The notes under the pieces were generated by a model that was given only the letters and a program-made list of their open reading frames with translations, had not been told where the DNA came from and did not search any database. A stretch of DNA of 61,580 bases, the filler included, from Streblomastix strix (Eukaryota), in assembly GCA_008636045.1 (NCBI GenBank). It is 2 parts of 2 records of this genome, joined end to end, with 100 filler letters (N's around TTAATTAATTAA, not from the genome) between each part and the next. Parts side by side here need not be neighbours in the genome. Positions count along the whole stretch, not along the records: positions 30,859 to 61,580 come from SNRW01000090.1; 1 more part is not named here. One strand, written 5' to 3'. Positions 30,722-61,580 of the stretch are shown here, one piece after another; the stretch's first letter is position 1, and the number at the start of each line of letters is the position of its first letter. Made by a program: the position numbers and the translations under genes.

Positions 30722-30758
30722 TATTATATTAAGATAAATAATAAAATATAATATAATA

Positions 30759-30858
30759 NNNNNNNNNNNNNNNNNNNNNNNNNNNNNNNNNNNNNNNNNN
30801 NNTTAATTAATTAANNNNNNNNNNNNNNNNNNNNNNNNNNNNNNNNNNNNNNNNNNNN
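30759..30858. other. Assembly gap containing an artificial TTAATTAATTAA linker
   Basis: Runs of N flank ttaattaattaa, a stop-in-all-frames spacer used when joining contigs. Confidence 0.9.
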
Positions 30859-30859
30859 T

Positions 30860-31704
30860 GATATCTTTTAATTTTTCTATTATTATTTTTAATTTAATTT
30901 CTTTATATGTTTTTCTTATTTAGGTAAGGAGGATGTGCGTAATAGTAAAGTGTTGTGTTGTGATGGAGAAGATTGTTCAATAGATTGCAGAAGGTATTCA
31001 TCGTGATTGACGAGGTTGTTTAAGGCATGAAGAGCTGCAACAATAACAGTGTTATTATTTGAGTCAAGTCCTGATCGTAAAATAAGAATGCCATCAAGTG
31101 ATAAAAATTCAACAATTGGCGATTCATATTTATAGAAGAGTTTGTTACAAGCAGGCGTAAATTATATTTGATGTTCATTTCCACCACTACTGACAAATTT
31201 CACCCACTCTGAGTATTAATGAAATATATTAGAAAGGATATCAAGTGCAGATGCACGTTGAGGCTGATATGCACTCATTGACAATCTTAGCAATTCATCT
31301 ATACAATAACCAGCTATATTTTCTTCATCTCCATGATGAAACAATCCGCTCTACACAGGAATATCATCTGATGTAGATGGATCTATTGGAAGGCCATCAA
31401 AATCAAATCTAAGTGAGGACTATGATACTTTCTTAACGGGTTTCATCGGCTTAGTCCACTCGAGTTTTGCTTCTTCGCTTACTGGCTCGACTGCTAGTTT
31501 CTTCTTGATTTATTTCTTTTCCAAAGTAGACACATCGAGACTTTTGCTTCCTTTGAGAGGATTATTAGGATCAGATCTATGGGTGACAGGAGGAAAGCCA
31601 AACTTCAAAAATGGTGGATCTTCAGGTTTTTCATCTTCGTCATCCGATTCTATTTCGTGCTCTACTATATCTTTAATAGGAGCAAACGGCTTATTTGGTA
31701 ACAT
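30860..31704 (-). CDS. RPAP1: RNA polymerase II-associated protein 1 (RPAP1/Rba50/MINIYO family), N-terminal part, truncated by gap
   Basis: MLPNKPFAPIKDIVEHE..GFP, then LRFDFDGLPI..IPVQSGLFHHGDEENIAGYCIDELLRLSMSAYQPQRASALDILSNI. This matches the RPAP1 signature RFDF.G..GLHHHG..AGY...EL..L.RS...QR..AL..L. Confidence 0.85.
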
Positions 31705-40603: not shown

Positions 40604-41433
40604 ATGAGACTTACGGTTGAACTTTTATAATAACTTGAATCTTTTTTTAATCCGTGTGGTGAACACTAAGTCAATATTAGAGGTTTGATTTTTTTGTTCG
40701 ACCATTTGCGACACCATCTCATATAATTTTATTTTAAAAATTGAAAATATCAATCTTAAGGTTTAAATATACCAGCTATTGAAAACTTTGGCACTCTTAA
40801 AGATGCTTACGATGCGGTGGACTTGACAGACAATGCTATATAGATTCTTGGCGGATTTCCTTGCTCACACCGGTTAAAAACGTTGCTCTTAGCAAACAAT
40901 CGAATTTCATAGATATAACCAACTCTTTCTGAATAACTTCCTAGGTTGGAGACACTCATTTTAACGAAGAACAACATAGACAACTTAAATGAACTTTCAC
41001 ATTTGGCTGGAATTCCAATTTTACGATTAGATGTAACAGAGAACAGGGTTTCTTAACTACCTGATTACAGACTCTTTGTTATTCATATGCTTCCAACTTT
41101 AAAAATACTTGATTTCTAAAAAGTAACTCAAAAAGTATTTTTTATTTATTATTTGTTTTTCATTTTTCTTCAATTTTTTGCTTATTTTTATTTAATTTTT
41201 TGCTTATTTTTATTTAATTTTGTTAAACTGATATATGCATTTAAATTAATTCTTTTATTCTATAGGAAAAAGAAGAGTCTGTTAAACGTTTTGGAGTTAT
41301 TGCATAAGAAAGCTCATAAAGTTCTGATGTTAAACAATCCGAAACTCGAGTAATAGATGCAACAAATAAGCTAGAAACAACTTTTTCACCTGGAGAGGTG
41401 CCACCAGCAGCATTTCATCCGTCAAAGAAATGA
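40604..41433 (+). CDS. SNRPA1: U2 snRNP protein A' (LRR protein; 2 introns)
   Basis: MRLTVELL..FNP..IRGLNIPAIENFG..DAVDLTDNAI..GFP..RLKTLLLANNRI..YRLFVIHMLPTLKILDFQKVTQKE. Confidence 0.92.
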
Positions 41434-41605: not shown

Positions 41606-41814
41606 AATTTATTTATATTTAATAATTATATTAATTATTTTCTATCCATTTTTTTTGTTATTCATCGAAAAATATTTTCTTTTGAAAAATTCTACATTAT
41701 AGTTCTGATCGTTTTGGTTGTGCAAATAATCAAGAATTCAGTTAATGTATGAGTCAAATTATATATGAAATATCTAAACAATTACTTCATTAAAATCAAA
41801 TTGATTTTGATGGA

Positions 41815-43976
41815 ATGGATAATGAATAAACAACTTTTTTATCTTTTTCCTTTTTTTCGCGGCTATTCAGGGCATTTAAAGCATTTTTCGTTCTTTTTAC
41901 GCTTGCCTTGTTCGTTGATTTGATGGGTACAAATAAGTGCAATACCGATACTTGCATTCCGAGGTGCAAAACTGATACTTTTCCTGAAGGTGGCTGCAGA
42001 TGCACCTAGAAATTCCACCCAACTGGTTGCACTTGCCCCGAAGATAAGCTTGGATTCTACACAAAAGAGCAATGTGAAGCTGACCAAGCATATTAAAAGA
42101 TGACAGATTGCACCATCAGCAGCACTTTACCGGGGATTGATTGTATATGTACTACTTCATTTCATCCAATTGATTGCACATGTCCTAAAGAACCTGTAAA
42201 ATTGGGAGGCATTCCAAATAATACATGTTCTTGTCGATCGTCTGGTGACCCAAGAAATGGCACAGATTGTCCAGAATATTGTACTGGACCAGATATTCCA
42301 AGTCAAGATTGTGTGTGCGACTCAGATCCATTAGCAACATTTACGCTTGATGATTGTTAACCAACTAAGACATGCACAGGTGATAACATTCCAGAAGGTT
42401 GCACACCAAATTGTACAGAAGGATCTACAGATACTGTTTATTCAAAATCTTGCAAATGTATTTCCACAAGTCACCCAGCAGGTTGCATGTGCCCTATAGC
42501 CACTTCAGAATTAACAGGAATACCTAATGCAAGATGTGAATGTCTCACTACAAATGATCCACGAGCAGGACAAGGAGAATGTCCTCCATATTGCACGAAA
42601 ACAATCCATCCATCTGAATGCATCTGTGACACAGGATCAACAGGAACTGAATGGAATTTAGAAAAATGTCAAACTACGAAGATCTGCTCAGAAGATGATA
42701 TTGAAAAAGGATCTTGCACATGTGGAGAAACTTAAAACCGTCCAACTGGTTGTCTTTGTAGAAATAATATTGATACAGATTGTATTTGTTCAATAGATGG
42801 CTAAGCATCTGGATGTACTTATCTTAAATGTTCAAAACAAACAGAAGATGATTTGCCTTGTGAATGTACATAAACTAATCACCCTACTGGTTGTATGTGC
42901 CCTATAGCCATTTCAGAATTAACAGGAATACCAACTGATCAATGTCCATGCCTTACAACAGGTGATCCACGAGCAGGAAGCACATGCCCTCCTTACTGTA
43001 CAGATAATGAATATTCCGAAGGATGTGCATGCAATAGTGGTTTAAATGGATACTAGGAATGTGAATATGCAGCTCTTGTCGCNNNNNNNNNNCAACAGGT
43101 GATCCACGAGCAGGAAGCACATGCCCTCCTTACTGTACAGATAATGAATATTCCGAAGGATGTGCATGCAATAGTGGTTTAAATGGATACTAGGAATGTG
43201 AATATGCAGCTCTTGTCGCATGTGAAGATACCACAGGATCTGTAGTCTCTGAAGGAAGTTGCAAGTGCAAATCTGGCAAATCACCAGTAGGTTGTACGTG
43301 CCCTTTGGATGATGTAGATGAATCATATACTAAAGAGCAATGCGAAGATGAGAAGTACAATGCATTATCAGATTGTTCAAGTGGAAGTATTCTCCCCAGC
43401 GAAGGTTGTTTATGCAATACTGAATACATACCTAATGGATGTACATGTCCCAGGATTATTACAGATGATACAAATAAAGTTGAAGAATGCACAGATATAA
43501 CTAAGAAATGTAATGAATTAAGTAAATAATAATTAGAAGAAGTTGATACTACTCTTTGTAAATGTTATAAAGCTGGAGATCCTCGAAATGGATGTACTGG
43601 TTAAACAATAGAATGTGATGATTCCTAAGCTGATTTATCATAAGTTCCAATTTCTCTTTGTCCATGCCTTGCAACAGGTGATCCACGAGCAGGAAGCACA
43701 TGCCCTCCTTACTGTACAGATAATGAATATTCCGAAGGATGTGCATGCAATAGTGGTTTAAATGGATACTAGGAATGTGAATATGCAGCTCTTGTCGCAT
43801 GTGAAGATACCACAGGATCTGTAGTCTCTGAAGGAAGTTGCAAGTGCAAATCTGGCAAATCACCAGTAGGTTGTACGTGCCCTTTGGATGATGTAGATGA
43901 ATCATATACAAGGACAGCATGCGAAGATGAAAAATAACAAACATCAAACTATCAACAAACTGATTCTTCTTCTTGA
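41815..43976 (+). CDS. Cysteine-rich repeat protein, probably secreted or surface-exposed (spans a 10-N gap)
   Basis: Hydrophobic N-terminus (AFFVLFTLALFV) followed by repeated HPxGCxCP, CxC and GDPRxG-CPxYC units. Ends with TGA at 43974-43976. Confidence 0.8.
43093..43909 (+). repeat. 238-bp direct repeat (43093-43330 = 43672-43909), with a partial third copy at 42956-43082
   Basis: Identical sequence caacaggtgatccacgagcaggaagc...atcatatac read at each locus. Confidence 0.9.
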
Positions 43977-44820
43977 ATAGCGATTTCGCTGAGTGAAATC
44001 TGTTCTTAATGGGAATGAATTCATTTCAAACACGTTCATATTAAGAATCTCCCACTAACTTCTCTTCTATATTCTATTCTCATTTCATTCCATATGTTGA
44101 TTAACAATGAGTATAATAAAATAGTGTTATAGGTTTAATTAAATATTTGTGTTGTTTATTTTTTAAAATTATGTAGTTATTTAAATGTAAGAGAATTATT
44201 TATTCAATTTTAATAGTTATTTTGATTGAAAAACACCTTGAGACTTGGGATGTTATCTTAACAAAACGCAGTGACATTTTGACAAAAATGCGTAACATGC
44301 CTGACATCGAAGATAAATCGATGTAAGACACCAAAATAAACTATTCTAAACTCCACGATATGCGGGGCAGGACCTCCTACTTGGGGGCGTGGCTCCATCA
44401 ATGAAAACGCATTAAAAATTGATTATCCAATGACGCATTTTTTCCATCTCAATTTTTAGTTATTTTTGAAATATATATGGTTATTTTCTATCAAATTGAA
44501 TTGATCATCATATGAAATATTATCTAAATGCTACAATAATATAAAACGCGATTTAAACTCTTATTAATCAATAATTGTATTTTTATAATAATATAATTAT
44601 GTTGAAATTGACATATATATACTAATAACTGAAATTTACATCATGATACTTAATACTAGTCCAATAAATGCATTTTAATTTTTCCAAAAAGAAATTCTTT
44701 CGTTGAACGTTTATTAATCATTTAATTTATTACTTTTTATTTTCATGAATCAATCTAATTGTTGGACTATATGTAACAATAAAAAAATACACTACAAAAG
44801 TAGTATAGTATGAAAAAGTT

Positions 44821-44923
44821 TGCCGTATGTTAAAAAGCATTCATTTTCAGATCAATCTGCCCACGCTAATTGAATAGGTGTAGCAAATTGAGTTATTTGT
44901 CAATGATTTTTTAACATACGGCA
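44821..44923. repeat. 16-bp perfect inverted repeat (hairpin) near the putative element end
   Basis: tgccgtatgttaaaaa (44821-44836) and tttttaacatacggca (44908-44923). Confidence 0.85.
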
Positions 44924-45218
44924 GCCAATCTTCCTCCAAACAATCAAATAGGCATATCAGAAAGCATTAATCGTCCACTCTGATGTTAGTAATGAATAAA
45001 TAATATTAATTGTTCACACTAATCAATATAACAAACCATACACATTAATAAAGTGTTTGTAGCGCAGCAAAAACACATTATATGTCATGAATTTACGATT
45101 ACAGCAATTGGTTACAGTAAATGTGTATTATTAATTGTATCGTTAATCCTTATGATTTTCTAGTGTTACTATTTAATAAATAAAAAGTAAATTTAAGTGG
45201 GTTAATGAGAAAAGTTAA

Positions 45219-45530
45219 TCAAAGATCATTATCAACTTTATATTATAGATATCTAGATTCTTCAGCTTCTCTTGCTACTCTAGTATTATGTATCTTACAT
45301 TAATCATTACTAAGTTATTTCATTTGTTTAATATACTTATTTTTGTCACTTCCTTCAGAAAGCCAGCTTTGCTGACTGACTATTTTAATATTAGCTTTGT
45401 AATCTGTGATTTGTTAATCTGTTAAGAATAAACAATTACTTATCTCAACTATATTATAATTATCATATGGGATATTACTTGTCAAAACTATTTCATCTTA
45501 ATCATTTGTATTTACTATTTTATAATCCAT
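45219..45530 (-). CDS. Viral hypothetical protein (103 aa)
   Basis: ATG-to-TGA ORF under TAR=Gln: MDYKIVNTNDQDEIVLTSNIPYDNY... Confidence 0.6.
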
Positions 45531-45560
45531 TTTTAAAATTGGAACAAAAAAAATAATTGA

Positions 45561-46229
45561 TCAATATAAATCAAAATTAATATCTTTTTCCTATTATTCA
45601 AACTAAACAGATTCTTCTTATTATTCTTATGGCTCTTCCTTTTCAATAACTTATTTAGCATAGCTCAAACCTTCGGTTTCTTTTTCAATTGTCTATTTTG
45701 GTTATTTATATCTTTTAACTTTTTATTTATATTTCTTTATTTGTTTAACAGCATCTTAATATTATTGTTTAATAAATTAATTTTCTGTTCTCAACCTGAT
45801 TAGTTCTTCCAAATCAAGTTGAGGATTAGTATAATTAATTTATGGAGTTTTTGATGTTTTTATGACTCTTTTTCTACCTTCAGTGGAAACGTAGTTTCTA
45901 ACTTATTTCTTTAAAGGTTTTTCCCTAACTTCACTTATTGATGTTTCATCGCTTTCATTTTATTCTTCTTATAGCTCATAAGATATAAAATCTTCATCAT
46001 CAATTTATTTTTAAGGTTGCTTTTAAACTTTTTTCTTGGACTCAAGACCTCCATCTCTTGCTTATAACAATAACTTATTCTATTATGTTTATGTTAATCT
46101 TTTAAGTGTCTTCTTTGATTCTTCGAATACTTTAAAATCTTTATTAATTTGTATTACATGTCCATTGTCAAAGTATTCAATATTTGTTCCATTCTCTATC
46201 AAATTCTTCAATGCATGTTGTAAGTCCAT
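45561..46229 (-). CDS. Viral hypothetical protein (222 aa, charged)
   Basis: MDLQHALKNLIENGTNIEYFDNGH...DINFDLY-TGA. Confidence 0.7.
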
Positions 46230-46306
46230 TTGAATATTTTTAAATAAAGAAAATGATAAAGGGCATAGAAAGAAACTCAATTCGCATGTCAAAAACCAAA
46301 AAATAA

Positions 46307-46975
46307 ATGTCTGAGATTAAACATAAAGAACTGACGGATGAAGATAAAATAAGATTGCAATTGATCGATGATGCAATTAGTCGCATTAAGACAATGCCTA
46401 CTATTGACGATACATTTTAACCAAAAGAAAATATAATTTAAACTGGGAATGAAATTATTCAAGTAACACCTGAATAATTGATTCTTACAGAATAAAAAAT
46501 TACTAAGTATAAGAGCAAATATAATAAAGATAAATATAAACAAATCGATAGAACAACTGCATAAGTTGATCCTGAGGAAGTCGTTAAAAATACTTATCTT
46601 TCTCATCCTAATTTGTCTGTAATGAAATTTATTATCGATTGCCTATGGAAGACGGTAACTACAAGAAAAAGAGGAGATGATTTTATACTTTCATCAGATA
46701 ATTTTATAAAACTTTGGTCACTAATTACTTAAGAGAATGAAGATGATATTGAAATAGTATTAGAAGAACCATTGATGCGATCCCATTCATGCATAGGTAA
46801 ATCATATAAAAGGAAAGATTTAATCAGAGTAATGGATGTACTAATTAAAAATGTTAGCATATCAGTTATAGATAATGTATTATTCAATTCGATTGAGAAA
46901 CTATGTCGAATTAACAAAAATTTTGTTAGGTTGTCTGATGCACCTACATCTGAGATATCAAAAGAAGATTTTTGA
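46307..46975 (+). CDS. Viral hypothetical protein (222 aa)
   Basis: MSEIKHKELTDEDKIRLQLID...SEISKEDF-TGA. Confidence 0.7.
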
Positions 46976-47010
46976 TTGTGGAATGAATGGCAATTATTTT
47001 TAGAATAAAA

Positions 47011-47766
47011 ATGGAATAATAATTAAGCGATTTAGATATGATTGATGAAGATGAATAGATTAATTAGTAAGAATAGGTTAGTAAAATAGTAAAATAATAA
47101 GAAGAGTAATAAAAATAAATTAAAGAACGTAACACATTATTATAAGTTATTGATAATGAGATTATTTAGTACTTTAATTATTTGAGTTAATTTTTTAGGT
47201 ATTCTATCGATTTCGTTAATTTACATACTGACTAAATTATTCGTGGAGTAAAGACGTTTCTATAACCAATCATTGTTGGTAAAATTATTAAATAAGGTGG
47301 AACAAGTAACTAAATACTATTAGCTAATGGAGATACTATTGAAAAAGATTAATTAGATTATGAACCAATTGAGAATGCACGTTATTCATCAATTGCATAT
47401 GGAAGGTATGAATCACGAATATGGGGTACAGTTACAACATAAAATAGTAGAGTGTATATTTCTCTGTAAATAACTCACCATAACTCAGATTCATTATCGT
47501 AATCAGGATATACTTTATTTTCAATCGTTGATAATGCTATAAAACCAAAATTCAGTGGAACACCACATAATATTCCCTTAAATGCAGTTATGTTTGTGGT
47601 AAAAGTTATTGCTTATCTGATAGATTGGAATGGAGTAATTCCTATAGATTGTTTTATTAATCCTAATGGTAATGTTATAATTAATACAATGTGTTAGCTT
47701 CTTTTACCTAATGATTATTGTGTATAAGTTTGTGATTCATATGCTATTCATAATTAATCAGCTTGA
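47011..47766 (+). CDS. Short fibre/spike-like protein (251 aa)
   Basis: N-terminal coiled coil, tail-fibre-like FVNLHTDQIIRGVKTF and KIIKQGGTSNQILLANG, beta-rich C-terminus. Confidence 0.6.
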
Positions 47767-47784
47767 TATTTTAAAAATAAACAA

Positions 47785-47910
47785 ATGGAAGGATTCAATG
47801 AGACAATCATCTATTCTCTTGAATAATTGAACATCAATTAGCATGCTATCTTTAAGACAATTTGGGAAGCAGCTATCAAATATGCCTGCGAATCAAAGAT
47901 ATGCCGTTGA
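47785..47910 (+). CDS. Small viral ORF (41 aa)
   Basis: MEGFNETIIYSLEQLNINQHAIFKTIWEAAIKYACESKICR-TGA, with the AAATG start context seen in neighbouring genes. Confidence 0.4.
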
Positions 47911-47932
47911 AAAATAATTTATTTTTGTAAAT

Positions 47933-49903
47933 TCACTGAGGCTTAATAGCTCCACCAGCAAGCTCACCAATAACATCAATATTTAGTACTTATGGCATTG
48001 AGCTATCATCAAATATGATTCTAACAAACGCATCACATAAATAATGCATCATTTGTGTAATGGATGCTTTAGTAGGATCAGGATATGCTCTAGTTCCAAT
48101 GAATTATTTGAAATCATTTTAGTTCTATGATGGATTTATATTAGTTGTATCAATAATACCTTTAGTCAAATTTCCTTACAAAATCACTTATATATTAGTT
48201 CTAGAACCTATCTTTGAAGAGTTATATCCTCGCATAAATGAATCATCAGTAGCCAATTTCCATGGAAGCATATATTTATTGGGATAAAGTGTTCTAACAG
48301 CTTTACTTCCGCTAAACAATGTTGTTAAATAGAATATATTAGCTGTTTGAAGTGGATTGTTAGGATTTAACCATCCATAGTAATTTGTCTTATCATCAAG
48401 GTTTCTGTTCTCAAAGGTAAGTGAATCATATAGATCTGATGGAGCATTAACAACATCTTAATCAACGAAGCAGTCAAACATTTATCCATTAGTTGCTTAA
48501 TTCAATGATTTATATGGTTATGGAATAACATTATTTTAATCAATAATTAGATTAAGTCCTGTGAATAACACTGGGAAAAACCATGTTGGATATTAGGGCA
48601 TAGCAAATGTCATAAATAATGCTTTTATATTAGAGAATGACATAATGCTTTACATAGATCCACTATCTTTATCAAATCCACTAAATGGAAAATTCGATGA
48701 TTATGTTCTAAATACTTATGTAGGAAAGTTGATTATTTTTTGAAATTGAATCATACTAATTATAGCTTCTTCATTTTCAATATTGAAGCATACGTTCTAT
48801 ATTTCCAGTACATCGAATTTAGCTGTCCCAATCTAACTAATTGAATTTTATGGATTCTAAACATCAACAGCTACATTTTACATATTTACAATTCTTACAT
48901 TATATCTTTAATACGATAGAGCATCAACAGTATCTCCTGCCAAAAGATAAACTATATCAGGTTTCTCAGGAGGAATCATGTGATAAGCTAAATGATTATT
49001 TTATACTGTATCATTTTTGTTAAGCCAAATAACTTTCAAATCTTATAGGAAATCTTATATCCATAATTGTAGATGTAATGTTCCGTCATTACGTGTAAGA
49101 ACAGGGTATGAATTAAATATAGGATTTAGTTGGTTAAGATCAAGTACTCCACTAAATGTAATATCTTTATCAATTTTGTAATAGAATGGTGTTGTAGCAG
49201 CTTATCTATCAATTTCACTAAGTGGGACATCAATAAATACTCCACAATGACGTTTTCCTTCAATTATACTTTCTAGTGGTGATACGCTAACACTATTTTT
49301 AGTACACAAATCACTAAGAGAATTCCCACTAATTACAGCTTATTCTCTTGCATAAATTGCAGATCCCCATAGCGCTGTTGCATCTTTCATTAGTTAGAAT
49401 TGGTAGAATGGTCCGCACGCGGTAGAGAAACCGATCCAAAATTATAGATGTTCCGATTTTTCAATTCCTTCAGCTGATTTGCCGTAATATCCTTATACCG
49501 CTTATGTCATATCATCAGTCCATGCAGCTAATGCATCTTCTTTACCATTGAAATTAGTTCGTTAGATTAATTTACCTGTAGTATTAACTCCTTCATATGT
49601 TTTATTTAATTATATCGCTAATGTATTTGCTGGTATTGTAACTGTCCAATTTACCTAGCAAGTTTATACCATTGAACATGCAGATTTACCTCTTGCTCCT
49701 AATGGTGCTCTAGTATATTTAACTCCACTAGATGTAAGTTCAGTTATAGGTGAATCGAAGAAATTTTGCTTTGATATTTCAAATGATTGAGGATGGATCG
49801 ATAATGATTTTAAAACTTCTCCAAGTTACATGTACCCACTAACGTAATCAGAATGTTACATTTTTGCTAATCGTCCAAGATAATCTCTAGATTTGAATGA
49901 CAT
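47933..49903 (-). CDS. Putative major capsid protein (double jelly-roll; 656 aa)
   Basis: Long beta-rich ORF MSFKSRDYLGRLAKM...PNKYMLPWKLATDDSFMRGYNS...VLNIDVIGELAGGAIKPQ. Size, composition and context (PolB, ATPase, penton) fit an MCP; the fold is inferred. Confidence 0.65.
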
Positions 49904-49969
49904 TTCATTGAAACAAAAATTAATGAAACGGAATGGATGTTTATATTAAAAGATTTTATATTAAATTAA

Positions 49970-50176
49970 ATGGGTTTCTTCTCTGGAATAGCAAATTTTG
50001 GGTCAATATTATTAGGTGGCGTTAAGAAAGCAGCATAATGGGTTGCACCAGCACTACATAAAGTTTTGTCAACAATATCAGGTCCTGTTGGAATGATTCA
50101 CCCAGGAATTGGAGGTGCGCTAGGTACAGGAGCTAATCTCGCAGGTGCTGTTGACAGATTAGTTAATAAACGATGA
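49970..50176 (+). CDS. Small Gly/Ala-rich amphipathic protein (68 aa), candidate myristoylated membrane-penetration peptide
   Basis: MGFFSGIANFGSILLGGVKKAAQWVAPALHKVLSTISGPVGMIHPGIGGALGTGANLAGAVDRLVNKR-TGA. Confidence 0.7.
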
Positions 50177-50231
50177 GCATTTATGCCCGCCAACAAAGTT
50201 GGTGATCTTGTCATAATTTATTTTTGAAGAA

Positions 50232-52259
50232 ATGAATGCTTCATTATCCCAACAATAAATCCGTACAGTTAGATAACTCATCACTAACGATATAGCTTAC
50301 TACATTCAATATTAGAAACGAGGTAATTCTAGTGGTGGAATGATGTCTAATGAAGAGTATTAATTATTCATAGATAATAACAATGCATTAGTTTATGCTG
50401 CTAATAATTAAATCGTTGATGGAATGGCATCAGATTATGCACTAAAAATAGAACCAAATGGGCTATTAACTATAAAGAATTTGAAGGTAATTAATTTTGA
50501 TTTTGTCGCTTAGATTAATTAGTTGATTAATTAAGTGAATTTACTATAACAATCAATTGGAACAACTGAATAGGATATCACTGATATAAGGAATGATATT
50601 GATACCATTAATCAAGAACTGTCACGATAAACACATTTCCGAGGATATTATTTATTGAATTCTGACATATAAAATTTACCCGATTCCGCTAATGGCGGTT
50701 TTTCATTTAGTGCTGAAAGTGGGACAGTATGGATGTATGACTAAAATTGGTATAATAATGGAAATATAGTACCTGATCAAGTAACTCCTGCAAGTGATGC
50801 AACACCGTTATCTGACGGTACTGCAACTGCAGGAATTAGCACAGAATACTCACGTGGTGATCATACTCATCCACTAAATATAACAACTACTATTCCACCT
50901 AGTGATTCCGTTAGTGGATCAGTTGGTACAGCTAATTATTATGCAAGAAACAATCATTCACATCCTCTCAATATAACAACTTCAATACTTCCACAAGATA
51001 GTGCTAGTGGATCAGTTGGTACAGCTAATTATTATGCTAGAAACGATCATTTACATCCAATTAATGTAGAAACTAATCCTTCGAATATTCCAATCGTTAA
51101 TGGTGTTGGTGCTAATGGATCATCATCCTTTTACGCTAGACAAGATCATGTTCATCCCTAATAATTAACATATGATGGAAATGTAACTGCTACTAAATTC
51201 ATTAAAGCAGGTGGCACTGCAAATGAAATTTTATTAGCGGATGGATCAACTAAATAAAACATTATAGCAGGTAGATCCTTTTCAGTAATTGACCCAGAAT
51301 AATATGTTAAATTATATACGATTTTAGCTGTAAATGCCACTATCGATAATTCTATTAAATTTGAAGTAACTACAAGAACAGGCTTTGGATTGCTATAGTT
51401 AAATCAACATTGGACTAATGGATAAGGTGCAAGTGAATATTAGTATCTATTTATTCCAACATTAGCCTCAGGTGTTAGAAGCGCATGGGTTTTATTATTT
51501 AATGATAGTGTCGATAGATATGGAGAACTATGGTGTAAAATTGATTATTATAGTTATAATACATATATATATGCAACAGAAGTGAGTGCCTTTTAGGGAA
51601 ACATCACGAATATATTAACAACTGATGGACAAACATAATTACCTGATGATTATAGTGTCATTTAATAGTTATTCCCTAATTAATATAGTACTGCTCTGTA
51701 AATTAACCCTATAGTTAATGGTACATTTAATGAAGGTATTAGAATAAGCAGAAACCCAGCAAACTTATGGAGTAATATATAATTTGGAGCTGATCCTAAT
51801 TCTGATATTGGATACATTGATAATTAATGGCTAATTGGCTCAACAGGTAATAATACAGTTAATCCTCTTGGATTTATTATCGTTAAAGCAGGATAAGAGG
51901 GAACGAGTAGTGGATTATAAATTAATTAATATGGTAATGTATTAAATTTTTATGGCTAAATGAATTCAGGAAATATTTAAATAAATCCCACGGCAATATT
52001 GGGCTTTGATGATGGTTTGAGAATTGCTAGAACAATAGAAAACACAGGTAGTGCATCGATTGAATTAGGCTGTAGTAGAACATCAAACGGTGGTGCAATT
52101 TAAGGATAATGGGTAATATATACACCATCAATTAATGCATAATAAGCCCCTTAAAGTTTTATAATAGCGGTGGCATCTTAAGCTGCTGAAGATGTTACTA
52201 GAGGATTATAGATCAGTGCTGATGGAAACACATTAACGTTCAATGGACGGGTTCTTTGA
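50232..52259 (+). CDS. Long phage-tail-fibre-like protein (675 aa)
   Basis: Coiled coil, four RxxHxHP repeats (SRGDHTHP, ARNNHSHP, ARNDHLHP, ARQDHVHP), KFIKAGGTANEILLADG, and a duplicated beta-rich C-terminal module. Confidence 0.8.
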
Positions 52260-52281
52260 TGTAAATTTATTTTTGAAATAA

Positions 52282-52740
52282 ATGGAAAAAGCTGTAACAC
52301 AACCGATTAAACAATTGTTCAATGAATTAGTCAAATCACACTTTCAAGATAACGATACAATTAAAGTTACAATTGAAGCATTATAAAATTTGTTAAAGAA
52401 TGATGTAACAGAATCAATCCATCCATTACTCTAGGAATTAATGAGAATCAATAAAACGTTCAATAATCAATAGCAATAATTATAAAATATAAAGAAGATG
52501 GTTGATGAAGAGGATTACAAAAATAAGCTATTTAATGAATAGAGTAAGTACTTCAAAAATAAATATCTATTAATCAAAAAGTCATTAGATCTAAACAATT
52601 AACCATAGCAAATAAAGAAGTACATCATCTCTGAAGCTAGCGAAGAAGAAAAATAGATTTACAATTAATTTGTGAATGATGAGTAATACAGTAACTTCGT
52701 CAATTATTATCAGCTTAATTTAAAATAATAAGATTGTTGA
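52282..52740 (+). CDS. Viral hypothetical protein (152 aa, helical)
   Basis: MEKAVTQPIKQLFNELVKSHF...KQQDC-TGA. Confidence 0.65.
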
Positions 52741-52948
52741 TATATTATATGTATTTGATTATCTCTTCAATTTAATCTTGGTTTGGTTCAATGAAAGTAT
52801 AATGTTATTTGAATTATTAATACAATTATTTTTCCTAATAATCTAAATCATTTGTCTCGATTAACGCTTCAAATATTTTGAAAATCTCATAATCTGTGGC
52901 ACAATACTTTAAACCAATATTTATAACTAACTAATATAGTTATTCCAT
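52700..52948 (-). CDS. Viral hypothetical protein (82 aa)
   Basis: MEQLYQLVINIGLKYCATDYEIFKIFEAL...-TGA. Confidence 0.45.
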
Positions 52949-52958
52949 TTTATTTAAC

Positions 52959-53342
52959 TCAAACAATTTATTTGTTTGGTTAATTTAACATTTTAAGGAA
53001 CAAGATATATCTCCAATGAGTAGCTAATTCCAAATCTTTATTGGCTATTGCTTCATTCAGAAACGTTTCAATTTATTCTACGGATAGCTATGACCAATGG
53101 ATTCTTGGCTAATTCTTGTCCATTTTTCTTTTGTAAAAGAATTATATGATGTAAATTGTAATATTTAGTGGGACCAATACTATATCAAAATAACTCCATA
53201 ATGTTTTTACTACATTAACTGTATCCATTAATTTATCAGGAATTGATACCGATATAATTGATGTAACAAAATTAACACCATAGAACAAGTAATTCATTAC
53301 ATTAATGATTATCGCTAGAATGTTACATTAACACGGATTCAT
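52959..53342 (-). CDS. Small viral membrane protein (127 aa, two hydrophobic segments)
   Basis: MNPCQCNILAIIINVMNYLFYGVNFVTSIISV...LWSYFDIVLVPLNITIYIIQFFYKRK... Confidence 0.55.
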
Positions 53343-53358
53343 TTTAATATTTTTGAAA

Positions 53359-54535
53359 ATGACTTTATAAGAATTATAAGATATAACGTTTACTAATCAA
53401 GATCTATTGAACGAATATAAAACTACGCCATTAACGAAGAATTCATTGTTCCTTATTAATGGAAATCATTATATTGTTGGAGCTGTTGGAAGTGGTAAAA
53501 TAACATTAATGTGTAAACTAATTGTGATCTATAAGAAAATCATTAATCCATTCATATTATATTTCTCGAATTATGGAGCAGATGAAACTATGGTATTAAA
53601 CCTTAATAGTAAGAACATTTAACTAACGAATGTGACTTATGGAGAAGCAATGATATTTCTACCTGGATTTGATGAGATAAAATATTCAACTAAAGAGATG
53701 TACACTTGGTACAAAATGAATGAGTAAAAATAATCTTATACTAGTGATTTTATTAAGCGAATGGAAGAATAAATAATATAAGCTAACGAGATTAAAAAGA
53801 ATGAAAAACCTAATGATTATCTTAATAGAATTGCTGAACTATTCAAGTAAAAGGTAATCGAGACCATTAATACATATTGTTAACCAACCAAGATATTGAG
53901 ATTCGATTTTCCAGCACTAATTCAAAACGTTACTTATTAAAAGAAATTCAAAATAGTCGATTAGGATTAGGTTGACATAAAAATAATGAAAATACCTATA
54001 TTGGAAAAAGCTTAATTACTCCATACATTAATGTTATTCGATGATATTGGATCTAATGCCGGCATTTAACGATTCAGTTCATAACTATCTAAAACAATAA
54101 CCCATCTCGTTAGCTTATATTATTTATTCTTCCATTCGCTTAATAAAATCACTAGTATAAGATTATTTTTACTCATTCATTTTTTACCAAGTGTACATCT
54201 CTTTAGTTGAATATTTTATCTCATCAAATCCAGGTAGAAATATCATTGCTTCTCCATAAGTCACATTCGTTAGTGATTCAAGGCATAGTAAAAACACTAT
54301 CTTTTTTATAGCTTAACGACCAACTTATATGTTTAAGACAGCTAGGATATTAACACATGTGATCTATTTAGGCGTCAATCTTGGTGAAACTGACCTAAGA
54401 CAAGTGTATGATGAAAATACCATAAAAAATTTAGATTTTGATGAATTCCAATTACTATACAACACATTAAAGAAATATGAATTTATCATATTAAACAAAT
54501 GGATGGGAAAATTTGAAATTCTCAAAAATATATGA
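53359..54535 (+). pseudogene. Genome-packaging ATPase (A32/FtsK-HerA type), interrupted by a 160-nt inverted insertion
   Basis: Walker A YIVGAVGSGKIT, Walker B LMLFDD, then DSRH..TIFFIAQRP..FKTAR. Removing 54114-54273 restores the reading frame (THLVSDSRH). Confidence 0.85.
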
Positions 54536-57500
54536 AAAATAATTATTTTTGATCACACGTATGAGTGTCTTTCGCTGTGAGCCCGAAAATAAATGGACAG
54601 CATGATTGATTCTCTAATACTATCATTTTTGTATGAATTCCTGTGATTCCATTTTTCTCAATAGATAATTGACTCATCTGATGATTCTTCTAGCCTAAAC
54701 GATTATTAGTGCATTTCGTTATCTTACCTTCATTAATGCAATCGACAATCTGGTCTTTAGTGATTTTGTTAGTCTTCTAATTAACTCCTTTCAATTTTAT
54801 TTTTGAATCATCACAATAATTTTTGAATATGATATAATTTTTGGGAGCTAATGCAATCATTGATGGTCCTTGTCTTTCGATTGCTAATCCAAGGATTTCC
54901 TTCTCATCATAAACGTCTCTTTTAATCGTGGGAAAGAAATATTTAGCATTCTCGTTATAGAAATCTCGATCATTAATTACAGCATTAAATTACTATGTAA
55001 AATCTTCATTAGGATTTCCGCTAATTGCCCAATAAGCTGAATCAGTATCTCCTTCAATAAAATGTATCCTATTCATATCTAAGCATTTGTACATGAAATT
55101 ATATATAAAGTTTAGATACCAATATTTAGCATTATCTAATACAAAGAATGCTACTTATAAAGGAGTTTTACAACTACAATGTTCAGGATTCATTTATACA
55201 ATATAATTGTCTTCAGATATCTTTTACTCGTCCATGAACGCATTAGATCTAATAGCTCTTTCTGTTTACTTCCTATTCATTATTTTAACTTTATGTTATT
55301 TCTCTGTATTCATTCCATCACTTCCATATGAGCTATTCATAACAATCTTAAAGAATTATTCTTATCCCTTATTCTCATCTAATTTTGCTTCAATTCTGTT
55401 TTTAGTAAATTCCTTAATAAATGAATTGAATTAATCATGCTTATTAAACAACACTATCTACTTTACATCATCTATAATAAAATGACAATCATCAATTAAG
55501 AACCATAAATAGTATGAGCTAAATGCCATATATTCTCCAATTGTTGATGTAAGATTAGTTAGCTTTCTTTATTTTTGATCAGTCTTAATCGTACTCTATT
55601 TCATGTGACTATACATATAACTACCGATAGTTCTTTCATCAGTAGTGAATTCATAATTCCTTAGAATAGGTGGGAAGTTAATGAAATCGTTAAGGTAATT
55701 CTCATCAATATGACCTTTGACTTCTGCAATGAATAATCTTCCTTCTTATGTATATCTCTTATTGCTATTAATTATTCGTAGTATAGTTTATTTTGAATGG
55801 TCATCTTCTCCCATAATCTTACCTGTTTATGATCCGCACATATACATTTTACCTCCAGTATATTTTATAAATTTATGAGGCTCTAATGACATAACACTAG
55901 GATATAAGGAATTAAAATCAACACCAACTACATGAGTATTTCGATGATCAGTTGTTAAAACAGTAACTTTCTTGGCTTGCTTGTTAAAATATAATCGTTT
56001 AATGAAGTCAATTCCTGATCTATTAACTCGATGCATTACATTTGATAATCCACCTTTGATCCATTTCCTGATTAAATGATTTACATCAATATCTGTTAGA
56101 TTAGTTGGTAAACATCTTATCATGCAATATTTACGTAATTATATGAACAATTTACTTATATTTTTATCTTTATCCGAACAGAAACAATTGCAATATAAAC
56201 AACAGGGTTGAACATTATCTTTTGAATGACCTTTTAAATTGTCGATTCGGTCAAGAGTTGGCTTATTAGCAAAAGTGAATTTACAATCACAAATGCTGCA
56301 ATTAGAAACTTTGAATAATTGTTTGAAATAATCGAAGTCATTATCTTATACGTTATTTGTTGTGTCTCTTTTTTTATGTTTATCTTGCTGTAGATATCCC
56401 TACACTTTACTCTACCAATAGTTCTCAGTTAAGTAAAATTTCTATGATAAATCTTCAAAATTAGGATATACTCCATTAATATCAAAATCCTCATAGGCTT
56501 TAGCATATTTGATAGCATTAGAGCATGCAGCCATACTCATGAAACTAAACATATCAATCTTATATTTAAATTGTAAGCTAATTAGAGTCATTAGTGGCTT
56601 GATCATTATATAAGTATCTTATTCATTATAGAACTATAAATAGTCCCATCTATTTTTAAATCGTTTTGCATCTTCTAGATAAATCTAATAATCCTTCTAA
56701 CTAATTTTTGTCTTCTTTAATGATGAATTGAAATCTTCCATCGTAAATGGCTCTGATTTACTTAGTACATCATTAACGTTATCAGTATTGAAAGCTTCAT
56801 AAGGAAATATCCATTTCTTATCATCGTATCCATCACCAAAATCTTTAGCTGCTTATCTTAACTCCATCGGTTAAAGATTCGTTAACATATCAACAAATTT
56901 CACTTTCAAATTCAATTTCTTATGATGTACAATTACTTATTTTGCTATTGTAGGGCTACCAATATAATTACTGATTGTCCAATCTTTACATTACATTTAT
57001 GATATGATTAATGATATATCAAATCTTGAGCTATTGAATCCTACTATTGGTACTTCCATTGAATAAGGAATTGATTCATCAATGGTGTAAGCTTCAGTGA
57101 TATATTAGTTGTCAGCATTAACTTACTCGGCTTCTTTAAACAATTAATTTAACCATTAGACTATAAAATCATCTCCATCTTATTAGCTAAAGAAGATTTT
57201 CTTAATTCCTTATTTGTTACGAATAGTTGATGCAACTGATAAAGGAAATAGTTCATACATTTAATAGCTTGACTTACCGAACTTTTTATTAACGATTTTA
57301 GGAACTGTTTCTAGATCGTATGTGATGAAGTATTATGTAGGTTTAAACTCATGTTATCTTCCATTTGCTAATAGATATTGATAAGTTTTATTCTACATAA
57401 TGTGTGGAACAAATGGCTTTTATATGTAATCTAGTTTAACTTTCTTAACTATTTTTCCTTCATTATTTTCACATTTTATAATGTGTTTCTCATAGTCTCT

Positions 57501-59140
57501 TGAGTAATTTTTATCTTTAGGATCAAATGCTTTTGAATTACAATGTGGGCAAAATTTCAATCCAGTTAATGCTTATTTATTAGCAATTGCGAAGGCATGT
57601 GATATCTTATTCCCTTCATAAATAGATTTAACAACTAATATATCGATAGTCTTGATGCTTTCCTATTTTTCGTTTAATAATCCTATTAATACATAACTTA
57701 TAATCCTCTATAATAATTCTTATGTTCATTATCGTAATAGTAAATGTCTTAGTTAATTTTTAACTTTTATGATACGATATTAGCGTATTTAGTTATATCT
57801 AATCCTTCAAATGTCTTCAATAAATCAGTCATTTTTCTACTCTTTGAATCAAATGATAGTTCTAATACCTAAACTAAATATTCTCTACTAATGATTATAA
57901 TTGATTCACTTTTATAACATTTCTTTTTTGAATCAGGATGTAATGCCTTTGCTACTGCTTCCATATAACAGTTGTTATTATTTCCTGTATTTTTATATAT
58001 AACATTTTTGCGACCATTACAATGAATATCGATTAATTCTTTCATACTTGCTCAAACAATTTGAGGTTAAAGATTAAATGTTTTGATTAGCATTGAATAG
58101 ATAGCTAAGAATCGTTACTTTGTGCTATCAATTATATAACTCTACATATTTATTATTGCAGATTTAATGTATTGTTTATACTCTTCAATATCTTCATCAA
58201 ATTATATAACTTTTGGAGCATGTTCCTATATTTGTGTATCTCTTGGTAATATATATCCATAATCAACTTAAACCTAATCATTCTAATTAGACTTATATTC
58301 TTCATAAATGACTCCAAAATTGAATTGAATCTTGAATGCTTAATGGTGCTATTCCTCATAAACTTTATCAACAAACTCTTCAATATCTAATAATGATTAA
58401 ATAATATTGTTATAGTGTAATTCGCTTAGTTAACCATTTTCTTCTGTTTATTCTACTGATCGTTCACGTTCAAATCCTTGTCTTGCTTTATAAACTGTAA
58501 CAACAAATTGTTCCATATTCTCAGGAAGAAAATATAATAGAGTGCCCGCATAATTATTTATTTCTCTAACATTTTTTCCACCAAACTATTTAATTAGATC
58601 CTTAATCTCTTTATTTTGATTGACTGTTATTTAATATTGAAGATTCGCCTCTTATTCTTCTTCCATAATTCTTTAAGCTAACTCTTGTTCTTTGGTGATA
58701 TAATCAGTCCAATAATCATCAGCTTATTGTTATTCTTATTCTCTACGATATTCTTATAAATCTTATTCATATTAATTTGAGTGATAATGAGTTAAATCTT
58801 AATGTAATTATCGATTCTATTCTTATATCTCATCATAGTAAATATCCGCTTATTGTTACTATTATTCTCTACGATACTCTTATAAATCTTAATCATATTG
58901 ATTCTATTTGAAATGTTAAACCAAATCTTTCGCTTTGATAATTTACTGATTATAATTATAAACTTATTTTAAATGAGTTTTCAAATCATTGTAGTTATTT
59001 CTTCCTCGTTTCTTATAATTAATTTTTTCTAAATATTTATTGAGTTATTCTTTAAGTTGAATTACTTTTAATTAATCATTTATGTTTTTGTTATTGATTT
59101 TAAGTAATTTTATTAGCTCTGCTTTCTTTAGATACGACAA
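54522..59140 (-). pseudogene. polB: Protein-primed family B DNA polymerase (~1530 codons), disrupted
   Basis: Exonuclease motifs ITYDLET, VGFNSSRFD, FPYE, YNEQD. Polymerase motifs GVDFNSLYPS, KIVMNSSYG, EGDTDS, LAPKNY, KLKGV. Lesions: in-frame TGA at 58052-58054, frameshift near 57675, and TTG at the expected start. Confidence 0.93.
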
Positions 59141-59174
59141 TTTGTTTAAAATAAAAATAATTTATTTAGACAGC

Positions 59175-60650
59175 TCATTAAAATTATATCTCTAGAAGTA
59201 AATTATTATACATATCCATATATTACATTGGTATCTTTCTTCCAAAGTTATCATATAATGTAAAGACTAACGATTTGTTTTATCCTACAAGGCAATACTG
59301 ACTCATCATATTCTATCCCCATAATACTGGAGCATCAACCAAATTCTATTTAAAGCATACGTTCGAGAATCCATTACCTCCTGTTGATTATAGAGTTATT
59401 CCTTATAATTAATTAGATACACAAATTATCAACATTTATGGATACTCTAGAAAATTACCAATGTATGGACAGAATATTGGAAGATCAACTTCTAAACTTT
59501 CATTATTATGTTTAGTTTAATAGAACCATACTTCGAGATCAATATATTTAATAGCTGATGATAAATTAACTAATTAGTTGGCTCCATTTTCGTTCTATCC
59601 ATCATATAGATCTTATCCACCAACTAGTTGGACGTATAGATTTGGAGATAAAAGTATACGATTAGAAAACCAATAAACATTATTTTATTAACAATATTCA
59701 GTTACAACTTATGGGATAAATTATCCATAATAATTAGTTCTTCCAACAGCTGTATAAATATTTTACCATTCAACAATACTAAAAGCGGGTAATGAATTGA
59801 TAATTCTAACTGGAAATGTGTTAATATTATTAATGATTTATTACATTGTTAATTGTTATACATTAATTGGTTAAGCATCAGATGTAGTAAATGTTCCATT
59901 AGCATTTATATCAACTTACTTACCGAATAGGTACCTTATTGATAATCCATTACCTTATGAAAAATGTTTTGGTTCGATTGATGTTATGTAGTAATTTGAT
60001 GTTGGACAATATAATCGTATTAATCCAATCATTCGATATAACTCATTAACTGTAGTATCTAATATCCAGTAATGATAGAGAAATGCATCGATTCTAAGGT
60101 TAATGTAATTGATAGCGGAATTCACTAAATCTTATCCATAATTCTAGTTTAATGAGAACATATAATTCTATAATTTTTATACATGCTCGTTAATTGCATT
60201 ATTAAAGCATATAGCTCCACTATTTAAAGTTGATTATGTCCTAAAATATTTCTCAATTATATCTGTAAAATTATCATATTATGTCAGTGTTAGGAATAGT
60301 AATTATGGAGTATATTTATAACCCTGTATCGTTTGATCACTATTATAAGCATTATTTATTGCAGTATTCAAACTAATACGTATTGGAGGTAATCTATCCA
60401 ACAATTAGCAATGAAACTGATCCTCTCCAATTTACTATTTGAAATAGATTTTCCTTGAATCAGTAGATACTATATTATGCTATATTTCTATATAATCGTT
60501 ATTCAAAAAATATGTTAAATTAATTGGAATGTTATTGATACTATTAACTTGAAAGCTTTAACTACCACTAGGGATAGTCGTTTACCATGTTACATAATCC
60601 TTATGTGAATCCGAGTTGATAATTTGTAAACCGATGTTAGTTATTTTCAT
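59175..60650 (-). CDS. Putative minor capsid protein (penton; 491 aa)
   Basis: Beta-rich ORF ending SLVFTLYDNFGRKIPMQYMDMYNNLLLEIQFQ, which resembles the L.D..GR.I......L.. C-terminal strand pattern of Polinton/PLV pentons. Confidence 0.65.
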
Positions 60651-60668
60651 TGAAACAAAAATAAAACC

Positions 60669-60893
60669 TCAAGATCTTTCATTTAGATATTATATCAGTT
60701 TCATTACTGCAGATTGACTATTCTCAGATGCTATTTATACAATTTCTTTTAACTGTTCCATCTTAAGACGTTTATTATATTGTCTTAATATAAATCTCAA
60801 TTCTATCTCAGGATCATTCTTTGTTGCTCGTGATATAAGTTAGCTCAAAAATGCTGAGTAAGTCATAAATTCTTCACAATTTATTTTTGCCAT
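60669..60893 (-). CDS. Viral hypothetical protein (74 aa)
   Basis: MAKINCEEFMTYSAFLSQLISRATKNDPEIELRFIL...-TGA. Confidence 0.6.
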
Positions 60894-61014
60894 ACTTTTC
60901 ATTAGAAAAATAATATCTTTTTAATGAAGTTATTATAAGTAAAATGCTTGAAATGATAATTAGTATGTCCCAGCCGATTGGATTATATTTATTGAGCTGC
61001 TGTTTTGTTTCCAT
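60874..61014 (-). CDS. Small single-pass membrane ORF (46 aa)
   Basis: METKQQLNKYNPIGWDILIIISSILLIITSLKRYYFSNEKYGKNKL-TGA. Confidence 0.45.
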   Translation of the reverse strand: METKQQLNKYNPIGWDILIIISSILLIITSLKRYYFSNEKYGKNKL

Positions 61015-61051
61015 TTATTTATTACTAAAATACAAATTATATACAATTAAA

Positions 61052-61580
61052 ATGTAAAGAGAAGTTAAACGATCTAAATCATCTGGTCCAAAGTCAAGTG
61101 CAAAAAGAGTAGGAAGATTAAGTAATTAACCAAAAGCATAAAATGTAAAGGAATATATGCAGCAAAAATAAAAGTATATACATAAATCAAAGTATATTGA
61201 TCCAACATCAGTAGCTAAAGTTCCTTAGATTTTACACGATATCGGATAGCTATAAACTGTTTAAGGAAGATTAAATAAAGGTTAATATGAATAAATAATT
61301 CATTAAATTATTGAAGCTGATCCCACTATTACGATAGAAGAAGCTGATGCAGCAATATAAGGATTTAAAGGTAAAGTTAGATAACAACGAATATATGGAG
61401 GATATGATCCTAATGACCTAATAGAAAGTAATAGAGAAGCTTAATAGTTGATTAACGATTTACTAATTCCATAATCTAAACAACAAACGTAATAAGCGGA
61501 TGCTGATACTGATTAAAATATTAATGATCGTTTTAATGAACCATCACATGATGTTAGTTCAAAGAGATAGCCATCAGCAC
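61052..61580 (+). CDS. Viral protein with a basic N-terminus (possible core protein), 3' truncated
   Basis: MQREVKRSKSSGPKSSAKRVGR...RIYGGYDPN...; the frame is open to the window edge. Confidence 0.6.

What the first reader, a model, noticed from the sequence alone, without database searches (positions are those of the whole stretch)
44799..61580. Endogenous Polinton-like virus with a full virion module, written in the host's TAA/TAG=Gln code
Seen: an abrupt switch from intron-rich host genes to about 18 tightly packed intronless ORFs, including pPolB and a packaging ATPase with clear motifs. The long ORFs are full of in-frame TAA/TAG and end in TGA; for example, the conserved Gln of ATPase FIAQR is TAA. 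Known: pPolB + A32 ATPase + MCP + penton defines Polintons/PLVs. Inference: this is a virus lineage long adapted to a recoded protist, whose host range would be limited by the genetic code. Most of its genes are invisible to standard-code annotation, and many have no family I recognise.
Basis: partly seen in the sequence, partly recalled or inferred. Interest (0 to 1): 0.9.

Follow-up and report, generated by a model that had tools for sequence, protein, structure and literature searches.

The report
Recoded Polinton-type virus in termite-gut protist
This is a broken copy of a many-copy DNA virus integrated in the genome of a termite-gut protist, with its genes written in the host's unusual code (TAA/TAG = glutamine); that code-sharing is already published for this host, but this capsid family is likely a second, uncatalogued one.

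Summary
From 44799 the window holds a densely coding element that opens only under table 6. The 656-aa ORF folds as a double jelly-roll capsid (pLDDT 87; Z 15–18 against PBCV-1, mavirus and Sputnik). There is a pPolB with vOTU catalytic residues and an endonuclease VII insert, a packaging-type ATPase, and a probable (unproven) penton and fibre. The host is Streblomastix strix (99.5% identity to a named protein). Bellas et al. 2023 already reported S. strix endogenous viruses using the host code. This copy is defective: pPolB has a stop and a frameshift, and the ATPase is split by an inverted duplication; sister copies are open there. The left end (AGTAGT) joins varied flanks in 10 contigs, so the family is integrated at several sites. 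The right end, any integrase, protease or TIR lie outside the window. Probably new: this capsid family looks distinct from the published Trichomonas-like cluster, forms one S. strix clade, and has standard-code relatives in metagenomes that share a small amphipathic peptide gene beside the capsid.

The parts
44799..44820 (+). Left terminus of the element, starting AGTAGT (probable TIR arm; partner not in the window)
   Evidence: 10 contigs of X1 and 2 of X2 have loose, disagreeing sequence just before 44798-44799, and depth jumps there; no inverted partner in the window
45219..45530 (-). 103-aa ORF, no family
45561..46214 (-). ~200-aa charged/coiled-coil ORF, no family, start uncertain
46253..46975 (+). 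240-aa ORF, no family
46987..47766 (+). 259-aa ORF sharing a 28-aa motif with the fibre-like ORF; possibly a second fibre or tip protein (inferred)
   Evidence: BLASTP 14/28 identities, E 5e-5
47933..49903 (-). Double jelly-roll major capsid protein, 656 aa, open frame
   Evidence: AlphaFold pLDDT 86.7, pTM 0.88; Foldseek E 8e-13 to PBCV-1 capsid; Z 17.9 rmsd 4.3 over 350 aa to PBCV-1, Z 15.6 mavirus, Z 15.2 Sputnik; wide search agrees
49970..50176 (+). 68-aa MG-starting amphipathic peptide beside the capsid gene; candidate membrane-entry peptide (inferred)
   Evidence: 29% identical to small ORFs next to the capsid gene in L001 and L002; non-significant profile hits to adenovirus pre-protein VI, E 2.3-2.5
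50232..52259 (+). 675-aa fibre-like ORF (N-terminal coiled coil, four HxH repeats, beta-rich C-terminus); fibre role inferred
   Evidence: sequence; 93-nt repeat; no hit in Pfam, PHROGs, PDB or phages
52282..52740 (+). 152-aa ORF, no significant family
52700..53122 (-). Two small overlapping ORFs (118 aa and ~50 aa), no family
53362..54535 (+). Packaging-type P-loop ATPase, broken by an inverted duplication
   Evidence: both halves match the intact L002 ATPase (E 2e-16 and 6e-14); the L002 ATPase hits a PHROG packaging family at E 1e-5
54104..54274 (-). 171-nt inverted copy of 53622-53792 inside the ATPase gene
   Evidence: 99% complementary; contigs of X1, X2 and X4 skip 54106-54267
54522..59128 (-). 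Protein-primed DNA polymerase B gene: N-terminal (probable terminal-protein) region, vOTU, exonuclease, endonuclease VII insert, polymerase. Broken by an in-frame TGA at 58052-58054 and a frameshift near 57665; start codon uncertain
   Evidence: Pfam DNA_pol_B_2 E 1e-10; maps onto single 1450-1550-aa homologs; vOTU Cys and His align with homologs; PHROG endonuclease VII E 7e-12; sister P0390 is open across both breaks
59175..60650 (-). 491-aa probable penton (minor capsid); fold not shown
   Evidence: homolog next to capsid and ATPase in L002 (E 1e-11); atlas feature hits of that homolog to viral clusters incl. V18-19 at 0.91 on 10% of members, structure TM below 0.5
60669..60953 (-). ~90-aa ORF, no significant family
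61052..61580 (+). ORF running off the window end; the element continues beyond the contig
   Evidence: 7 contigs of X1 run over the ends of the laid stretch

Best explanation
This is the left 16.8 kb of a defective copy of a multi-copy endogenous Polinton-type DNA virus of the oxymonad Streblomastix strix, whose intact sister copies likely replicate by protein priming, likely integrate through a retrovirus-like integrase encoded beyond the window, and are predicted to build double jelly-roll particles using the host's TAA/TAG=Gln translation. Shown: capsid fold, pPolB architecture, code, integration at several sites, and the breaks in this copy. Inferred from the family (PMC11161782): the vOTU domain would cut off the terminal protein, the ATPase would package the DNA, and the fibre and the amphipathic peptide would mediate entry. 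The lineage most likely entered oxymonads from a standard-code ancestor, shifted its stops to TGA, drifted to host Gln codon use and then radiated. With 36 TAA/TAG in the capsid gene alone it could not be translated in a standard-code host (inferred).
For: Fold. pPolB. Code is functional, not decay: TAA/TAG make up 78.7% of Gln codons in 12 viral frames and 74.8% in 6 host frames; Gln is 8.3% and 9.6% of codons, against 3.5% in L002. Gln is the commonest residue opposite TAA/TAG in 26 unnamed pPolB homologs (13% of cells; 2 of the 5 conserved-Gln columns are TAA/TAG) and in 19 distant capsids (15.7% against 4.2% elsewhere). L002 and L001 use TAA/TAG as stops (7 of 11 and 4 of 6 ORFs). Long residence: all 21 S. 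strix capsids form one clade (SH-aLRT 100, stem 1.33) beside 11 unnamed relatives; 19 of 20 S. strix pPolBs form one clade; 27 of 120 listed capsid homologs are 600-700 aa, at identities down to 50%. Host: P0387, named S. strix, is 99.5% identical over 1041 aa; all 120 listed of 186 capsid hits are S. strix. Integration: varied flanks at 44799, and host-side contigs identical to the window in the same run. Integrase lead: an rve domain (E 0.002, below cut-off) follows pPolB in the distant S. strix gene model P0370.
Against: No integrase, recombinase or protease was detected in the window. The rve hit is weak and belongs to another pPolB sub-clade. The right end, TIR and target-site duplication could not be seen. 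The penton fold is not shown. No listed contig bridges 44799 with 31 letters on both sides, so this particular junction rests on the assembly. One S. strix pPolB (P0362) falls outside the clade, on a long branch (FastTree only). There is no evidence of particles.
Confidence: 0.85

Rival explanations
1. The family now spreads only as an intracellular transposon; capsid, penton and fibre are relics and no particles are made.
For: This copy is broken in two core genes, and most listed capsid homologs are shorter than full length (93 of 120 outside 600-700 aa).
Against: The capsid frame is open here and in copies that have diverged to about 55% identity, which is hard to keep without selection. 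Short homologs partly reflect fragmented contigs.
Confidence: 0.25
2. The breaks are assembly artefacts from collapsing many near-identical copies, and the true insertion is intact. Bellas et al. describe such false stops in other protists.
For: Most laid contigs are only 90-99% alike, and three runs skip the ATPase insert; PMC10120064 section 7.
Against: A separately deposited S. strix gene model (P0387) is 99.5% identical and maps onto the same inverted ATPase piece; it may derive from the same reads. Window-private alleles occur at low, single-locus-like depth at some sites.
Confidence: 0.2
3. A standard-code virus integrated and decayed, and the TAA/TAG codons are nonsense mutations in an AT-rich genome.
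For: This copy carries real lesions, and several of its TAA/TAG positions are not Gln in close homologs.
Against: Frames stay free of TGA far beyond chance; the TAA/TAG share equals the host's; many TAA/TAG columns are Gln in 90-100% of the S. strix gene models; ORF ends match homolog ends at TGA.
Confidence: 0.02
4. A free, non-integrated virus or contaminant contig was mis-joined to host DNA.
For: Summed contig depth is two to three orders of magnitude higher in the element than in the flank (the tool warns this is not a copy number). No listed contig bridges the junction.
Against: Ten contigs join the same terminus to different flanks; homologs lie on many separate S. strix contigs of up to 41 kb; the code matches the host's.
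Confidence: 0.05

Closest known systems
S. strix endogenous viruses of the 'Metamonada group' (MCP cluster MMPC_40; Bellas et al. 2023, PMC10120064; I read passages, section 9 and parts of the supplements)
   Same: Same host, integrated, double jelly-roll capsid, same TAA/TAG=Gln code; the paper already infers a long-term association and counts 820 hits.
   Different: Their S. strix representative is 562 aa and about 32% identical to Trichomonas capsids. None of the 8 S. strix locus tags I saw in their tables is among my 120 listed hits, and none of 6 of my hit accessions is in the held, truncated supplement. By eye the two capsids look like distant homologs; no alignment was computed.
Polintons/Mavericks (class Polintoviricetes; PMC11161782, abstract, introduction start and section 8 read)
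   Same: TP-vOTU-exonuclease-polymerase pPolB with catalytic Cys and His, packaging ATPase, double jelly-roll capsid, probable minor capsid.
   Different: RVE integrase and Ulp1 protease were not found in the 16.8 kb seen. The capsid is 656 aa with no Pfam or PDB sequence match.
pPolB2 Polintons with an HNH insert (nematodes and oomycetes; bioRxiv 10.1101/2023.08.22.554363, passages read)
   Same: An HNH/endonuclease VII-type domain inside pPolB; the paper finds pPolB2 abundant in Metamonada.
   Different: The paper calls the HNH insert unique to oomycete and nematode elements. Whether this insert is the same one was not tested.
Unnamed standard-code elements in metagenome contigs L001-L003
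   Same: Capsid 25-30% identical, ATPase, penton-like gene, and the small amphipathic peptide next to the capsid.
   Different: Standard code with TAA/TAG stops, different gene orientation, no pPolB in the 13.4 kb held, host unknown.

Membership tests
Polinton/Maverick (Polintoviricetes) | Protein-primed PolB with N-terminal vOTU domain | tested here: met
   Pfam hit, motifs and Cys/His alignment; the gene is broken in this copy and open in P0390
Polinton/Maverick (Polintoviricetes) | PRD1-like terminal-protein domain at the pPolB N-terminus | tested here: inconclusive
   N-terminal region aligns with full-length homologs at about 22%; fold not modelled
Polinton/Maverick (Polintoviricetes) | Double jelly-roll major capsid protein | tested here: met
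Polinton/Maverick (Polintoviricetes) | Single jelly-roll minor capsid (penton) | tested here: inconclusive
   synteny and weak atlas hits on the L002 homolog; no PDB or Pfam hit; not folded
Polinton/Maverick (Polintoviricetes) | A32-like packaging ATPase | tested here: met
   Walker A/B and FIAQR motifs; homology to the intact L002 ATPase; broken in this copy; subfamily name from recalled motifs
Polinton/Maverick (Polintoviricetes) | RVE integrase | tested here: inconclusive
   absent from the window, right end missing; weak rve hit beside pPolB in distant S. strix model P0370
Polinton/Maverick (Polintoviricetes) | Ulp1-like maturation protease | tested here: inconclusive
   no hit among window ORFs; element incomplete
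Polinton/Maverick (Polintoviricetes) | Terminal inverted repeats and 5-8 bp target-site duplication | not testable with these tools
   only the left end is held; no genome is held
Polinton-like viruses with tyrosine recombinase or helicase-polymerase | YR integrase or S1H-type replication gene | tested here: inconclusive
   neither detected in the window; a full pPolB is present instead
Metamonada group MMPC_40 (Bellas 2023) | Capsid clusters with the T. vaginalis capsid at 25% identity over 30% of length | tested here: inconclusive
   no overlap of locus tags or accessions, but the supplement is cut before the S. strix rows; the L002 capsid's best atlas feature hit is a Parabasalia cluster (0.98); direct alignment not run
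Virophages (Maveriviricetes) | Virophage-type capsid plus conserved protease | tested here: inconclusive
   Z to mavirus and Sputnik (15-16) is no better than to PBCV-1 or faustovirus (17-18); no protease seen

The most novel reading that the evidence does not exclude
S. strix carries a second, uncatalogued family of Polinton-type viruses that switched genetic code once, radiated inside the recoded host, still has particle-forming copies and is locked out of standard-code hosts. Its standard-code sister viruses survive in other environments, and both keep a small adenovirus protein VI-like entry peptide next to the capsid gene.
Probability: 0.3. Interest if true: 0.62.

Novelty: new member of a known kind. 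Interest (0 to 1): 0.38.

Why it matters
The recoded S. strix clade and its standard-code relatives form a natural before/after pair for asking how a eukaryotic DNA virus crosses a genetic-code barrier. One can ask whether stops move to TGA first, how fast Gln codons drift to TAA/TAG, and whether Gln content rises (3.5% of codons in L002, 8.3% here). If the capsid family was missed by the 2023 survey, the viral load of this genome is under-counted. The basic claim, endogenous viruses using S. strix's code, is not new, and this copy is defective.

Tried and rejected
No whole genome is held, so genome-wide counting and extension to the right were impossible. The first capsid model, from 50 close homologs, was poor (pLDDT 48) and gave no fold match; adding distant homologs fixed it. 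Sequence searches of the PDB for capsid, penton and fibre found nothing significant. Five scans of viral contigs for capsid relatives found none. A terminus pattern scan gave one hit in a 332-kb contig, treated as chance and not followed. No tRNA genes were found in the window. No RNA holder was listed. The exact look-up of the window capsid lacked the start Met, so its blank means nothing. An IQ-TREE run for pPolB timed out; FastTree was used instead, with 16 of the 66 hits left out. Four short motifs of the published capsid were absent from all stored proteins; this is weak evidence. The similarity of the 675-aa ORF to the L002 fibre-like ORF is marginal (E 0.012). The S. strix genome paper is not held. 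Literature searches: 'Streblomastix + Polinton' gave only Bellas 2023; searches listed no further paper on these elements (listings only); two searches listed none that names a protein VI-like gene in Polintons, although Starrett 2021 (PMC8502044, passages read) describes other small membrane-active genes. PMC13524828 (passages) reports giant viruses with alternative codes. Look-ups of earlier scan findings by place and by sequence were empty.
Full report
Observation. The stretch 44799-61580 is almost free of ORFs under table 11 (5 ORFs of 71-105 aa) and densely coding under table 6 (about 95% by my 17-segment map). Its longest TGA-free frame is 1067 codons, against a maximum of 481 in 200 simulations. 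The four long ORFs carry 36-44 in-frame TAA/TAG and end in TGA. GC content does not step at the boundary, and the host side also has very long uninterrupted frames.

Host. All 120 listed of 186 capsid homologs and all 10 penton-candidate homologs are named Streblomastix strix. One S. strix gene model is 99.5% identical to the window's polymerase over 1041 aa. The best-holding runs are termite-gut metagenomes, and run X1 has contigs identical to the host flank.

Boundary and copy status. Ten contigs of X1 carry disagreeing sequence immediately before 44799, where the element starts AGTAGT. An AG start is what I recall for Polinton termini; no call confirmed that. The family is therefore integrated at several sites. 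Summed contig depth is two to three orders of magnitude above the flank, and 29-30 of 30 bins are covered in four runs from three studies; the tool warns that this is not a copy number. No listed contig bridges this junction with 31 letters on each side. The right end is outside the window and no genome is held.

Capsid. A first model was poor. With distant homologs from the representative search the model reached pLDDT 86.7. It matches double jelly-roll capsids: Foldseek E 8e-13, viral library E 2e-14, Z 17.9 over 350 residues to PBCV-1 and about 15 to mavirus and Sputnik. An independent wide search ranks such capsids in its first 15 rows.

Polymerase. The 400-, 162- and 958-aa ORFs map onto single 1450-1550-aa homologs. 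They form one gene with an in-frame TGA at 58052-58054 and a frameshift near 57665; the sister model P0390 is open across both. A Cys and a His align with those of full-length homologs, matching the vOTU domain described in PMC11161782. An endonuclease VII domain lies between exonuclease and polymerase. Such inserts are known in Polinton polymerases.

Other genes. The ATPase is interrupted by a 171-nt inverted copy of its own upstream part. Both halves match the intact ATPase of L002, and contigs of three runs skip the insert. The 491-aa ORF has a homolog near capsid and ATPase in L002. Atlas hits for that homolog are viral but weak, so 'penton' stays inferred. The 675-aa ORF looks fibre-like but has no database match. 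A 68-aa MG-starting amphipathic peptide next to the capsid gene is conserved in L001 and L002. Its profile touches adenovirus pre-protein VI only at E 2.3-2.5, below several unrelated hits: a lead, not a finding. No integrase, recombinase or protease was detected. A weak rve domain follows pPolB in a distant S. strix gene model.

Is the code real? TAA/TAG supply 78.7% of Gln codons in the element and 74.8% in host frames. Opposite these codons, Gln is the commonest residue in unnamed polymerase homologs and in distant capsids. L001 and L002 use TAA/TAG as stops. Overall codon-usage correlation does not separate host from L002 (0.94 against 0.94), so only the Gln and stop codons are informative.

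History. All 21 S. strix capsids form one clade on a long stem beside 11 unnamed relatives (quick tree, midpoint root, long branches flagged). Nineteen of 20 S. strix polymerases form one clade; the exception is on a long branch (FastTree; 50 rows, 16 of 66 hits left out). This fits one code switch followed by radiation, but does not prove it. The code of most unnamed proteins is assumed from their lower Gln content; only L001 and L002 were checked on DNA (L003's capsid frame is open under table 11).

Mechanism. Shown: architecture, fold, code, multi-site integration and lesions. Inferred from the family: protein-primed replication with vOTU cleavage of the terminal protein, ATPase packaging into an icosahedral shell, entry through fibre and amphipathic peptide, and integration by an RVE integrase. 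No tRNA was found in the window, so decoding would rely on host tRNAs. The barrier should be asymmetric (inference): a standard-code virus entering this host would only read through its stops, whereas the recoded virus would be truncated dozens of times per gene elsewhere.

Novelty. Bellas et al. 2023 state that S. strix endogenous viruses use the host's table and infer a long association, with 820 capsid hits in one Trichomonas-like cluster. The headline is therefore known. My capsid family shares no locus tag or accession with what I could see of their tables and is about 90 residues longer than their representative. Their file is cut before the S. strix rows, so a second family is probable (about 0.65) but not shown. 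One earlier scan note also cites the S. strix elements as known; it is not independent support.

Verdict. Real, well-supported, a new member of a known kind, and defective in this copy. Interest 0.38.

Noticed in passing
window 44248-44700: A separate moderately repeated element lies directly left of the virus terminus. Depth rises at ~44248, and contigs join it there to other flanks. It contains the short inverted repeat ACATCG-N9-CGATGT. Possibly a remnant of another transposon.
   Followed up: partly
window 41749-43992: Cysteine-rich repeat surface-type host protein with a predicted N-terminal hydrophobic segment. It has a 10-N gap at 43083-43092 and an identical 238-nt duplication (43093/43672), which suggests local mis-assembly.
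   Followed up: no
window 2-10987 and 15094-22206: Very long TGA-free host frames (3661 and 2370 codons); the second looks like the C-terminal part of a Fab1/PIKfyve-type lipid kinase (recalled motifs).
   Followed up: no
window 34619-36789 and 40745-41100: Rad50-like and U2A'-like host exons in table 6 (recognised from recalled motifs, not searched).
   Followed up: no
window 30734-30883: An 81-nt palindrome built around two runs of 44 N; probably a scaffolding artefact.
   Followed up: no
L002 5380-7293: Three tandem paralog-like ORFs of ~200-220 aa between the ATPase and the penton-like gene of the standard-code relative; no Pfam family for the one scanned.
   Followed up: partly
protein P0118 (S. 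strix gene model): A capsid homolog joined in the gene model to an HNH_3 endonuclease and to a pPolB N-terminal-like region, suggesting a homing endonuclease gene beside the capsid in some copies.
   Followed up: partly
penton-candidate alignment A4: Sister copies read Gln at positions where the window has Tyr, as expected if TAT/TAC mutate to TAA/TAG without truncation in this code.
   Followed up: no
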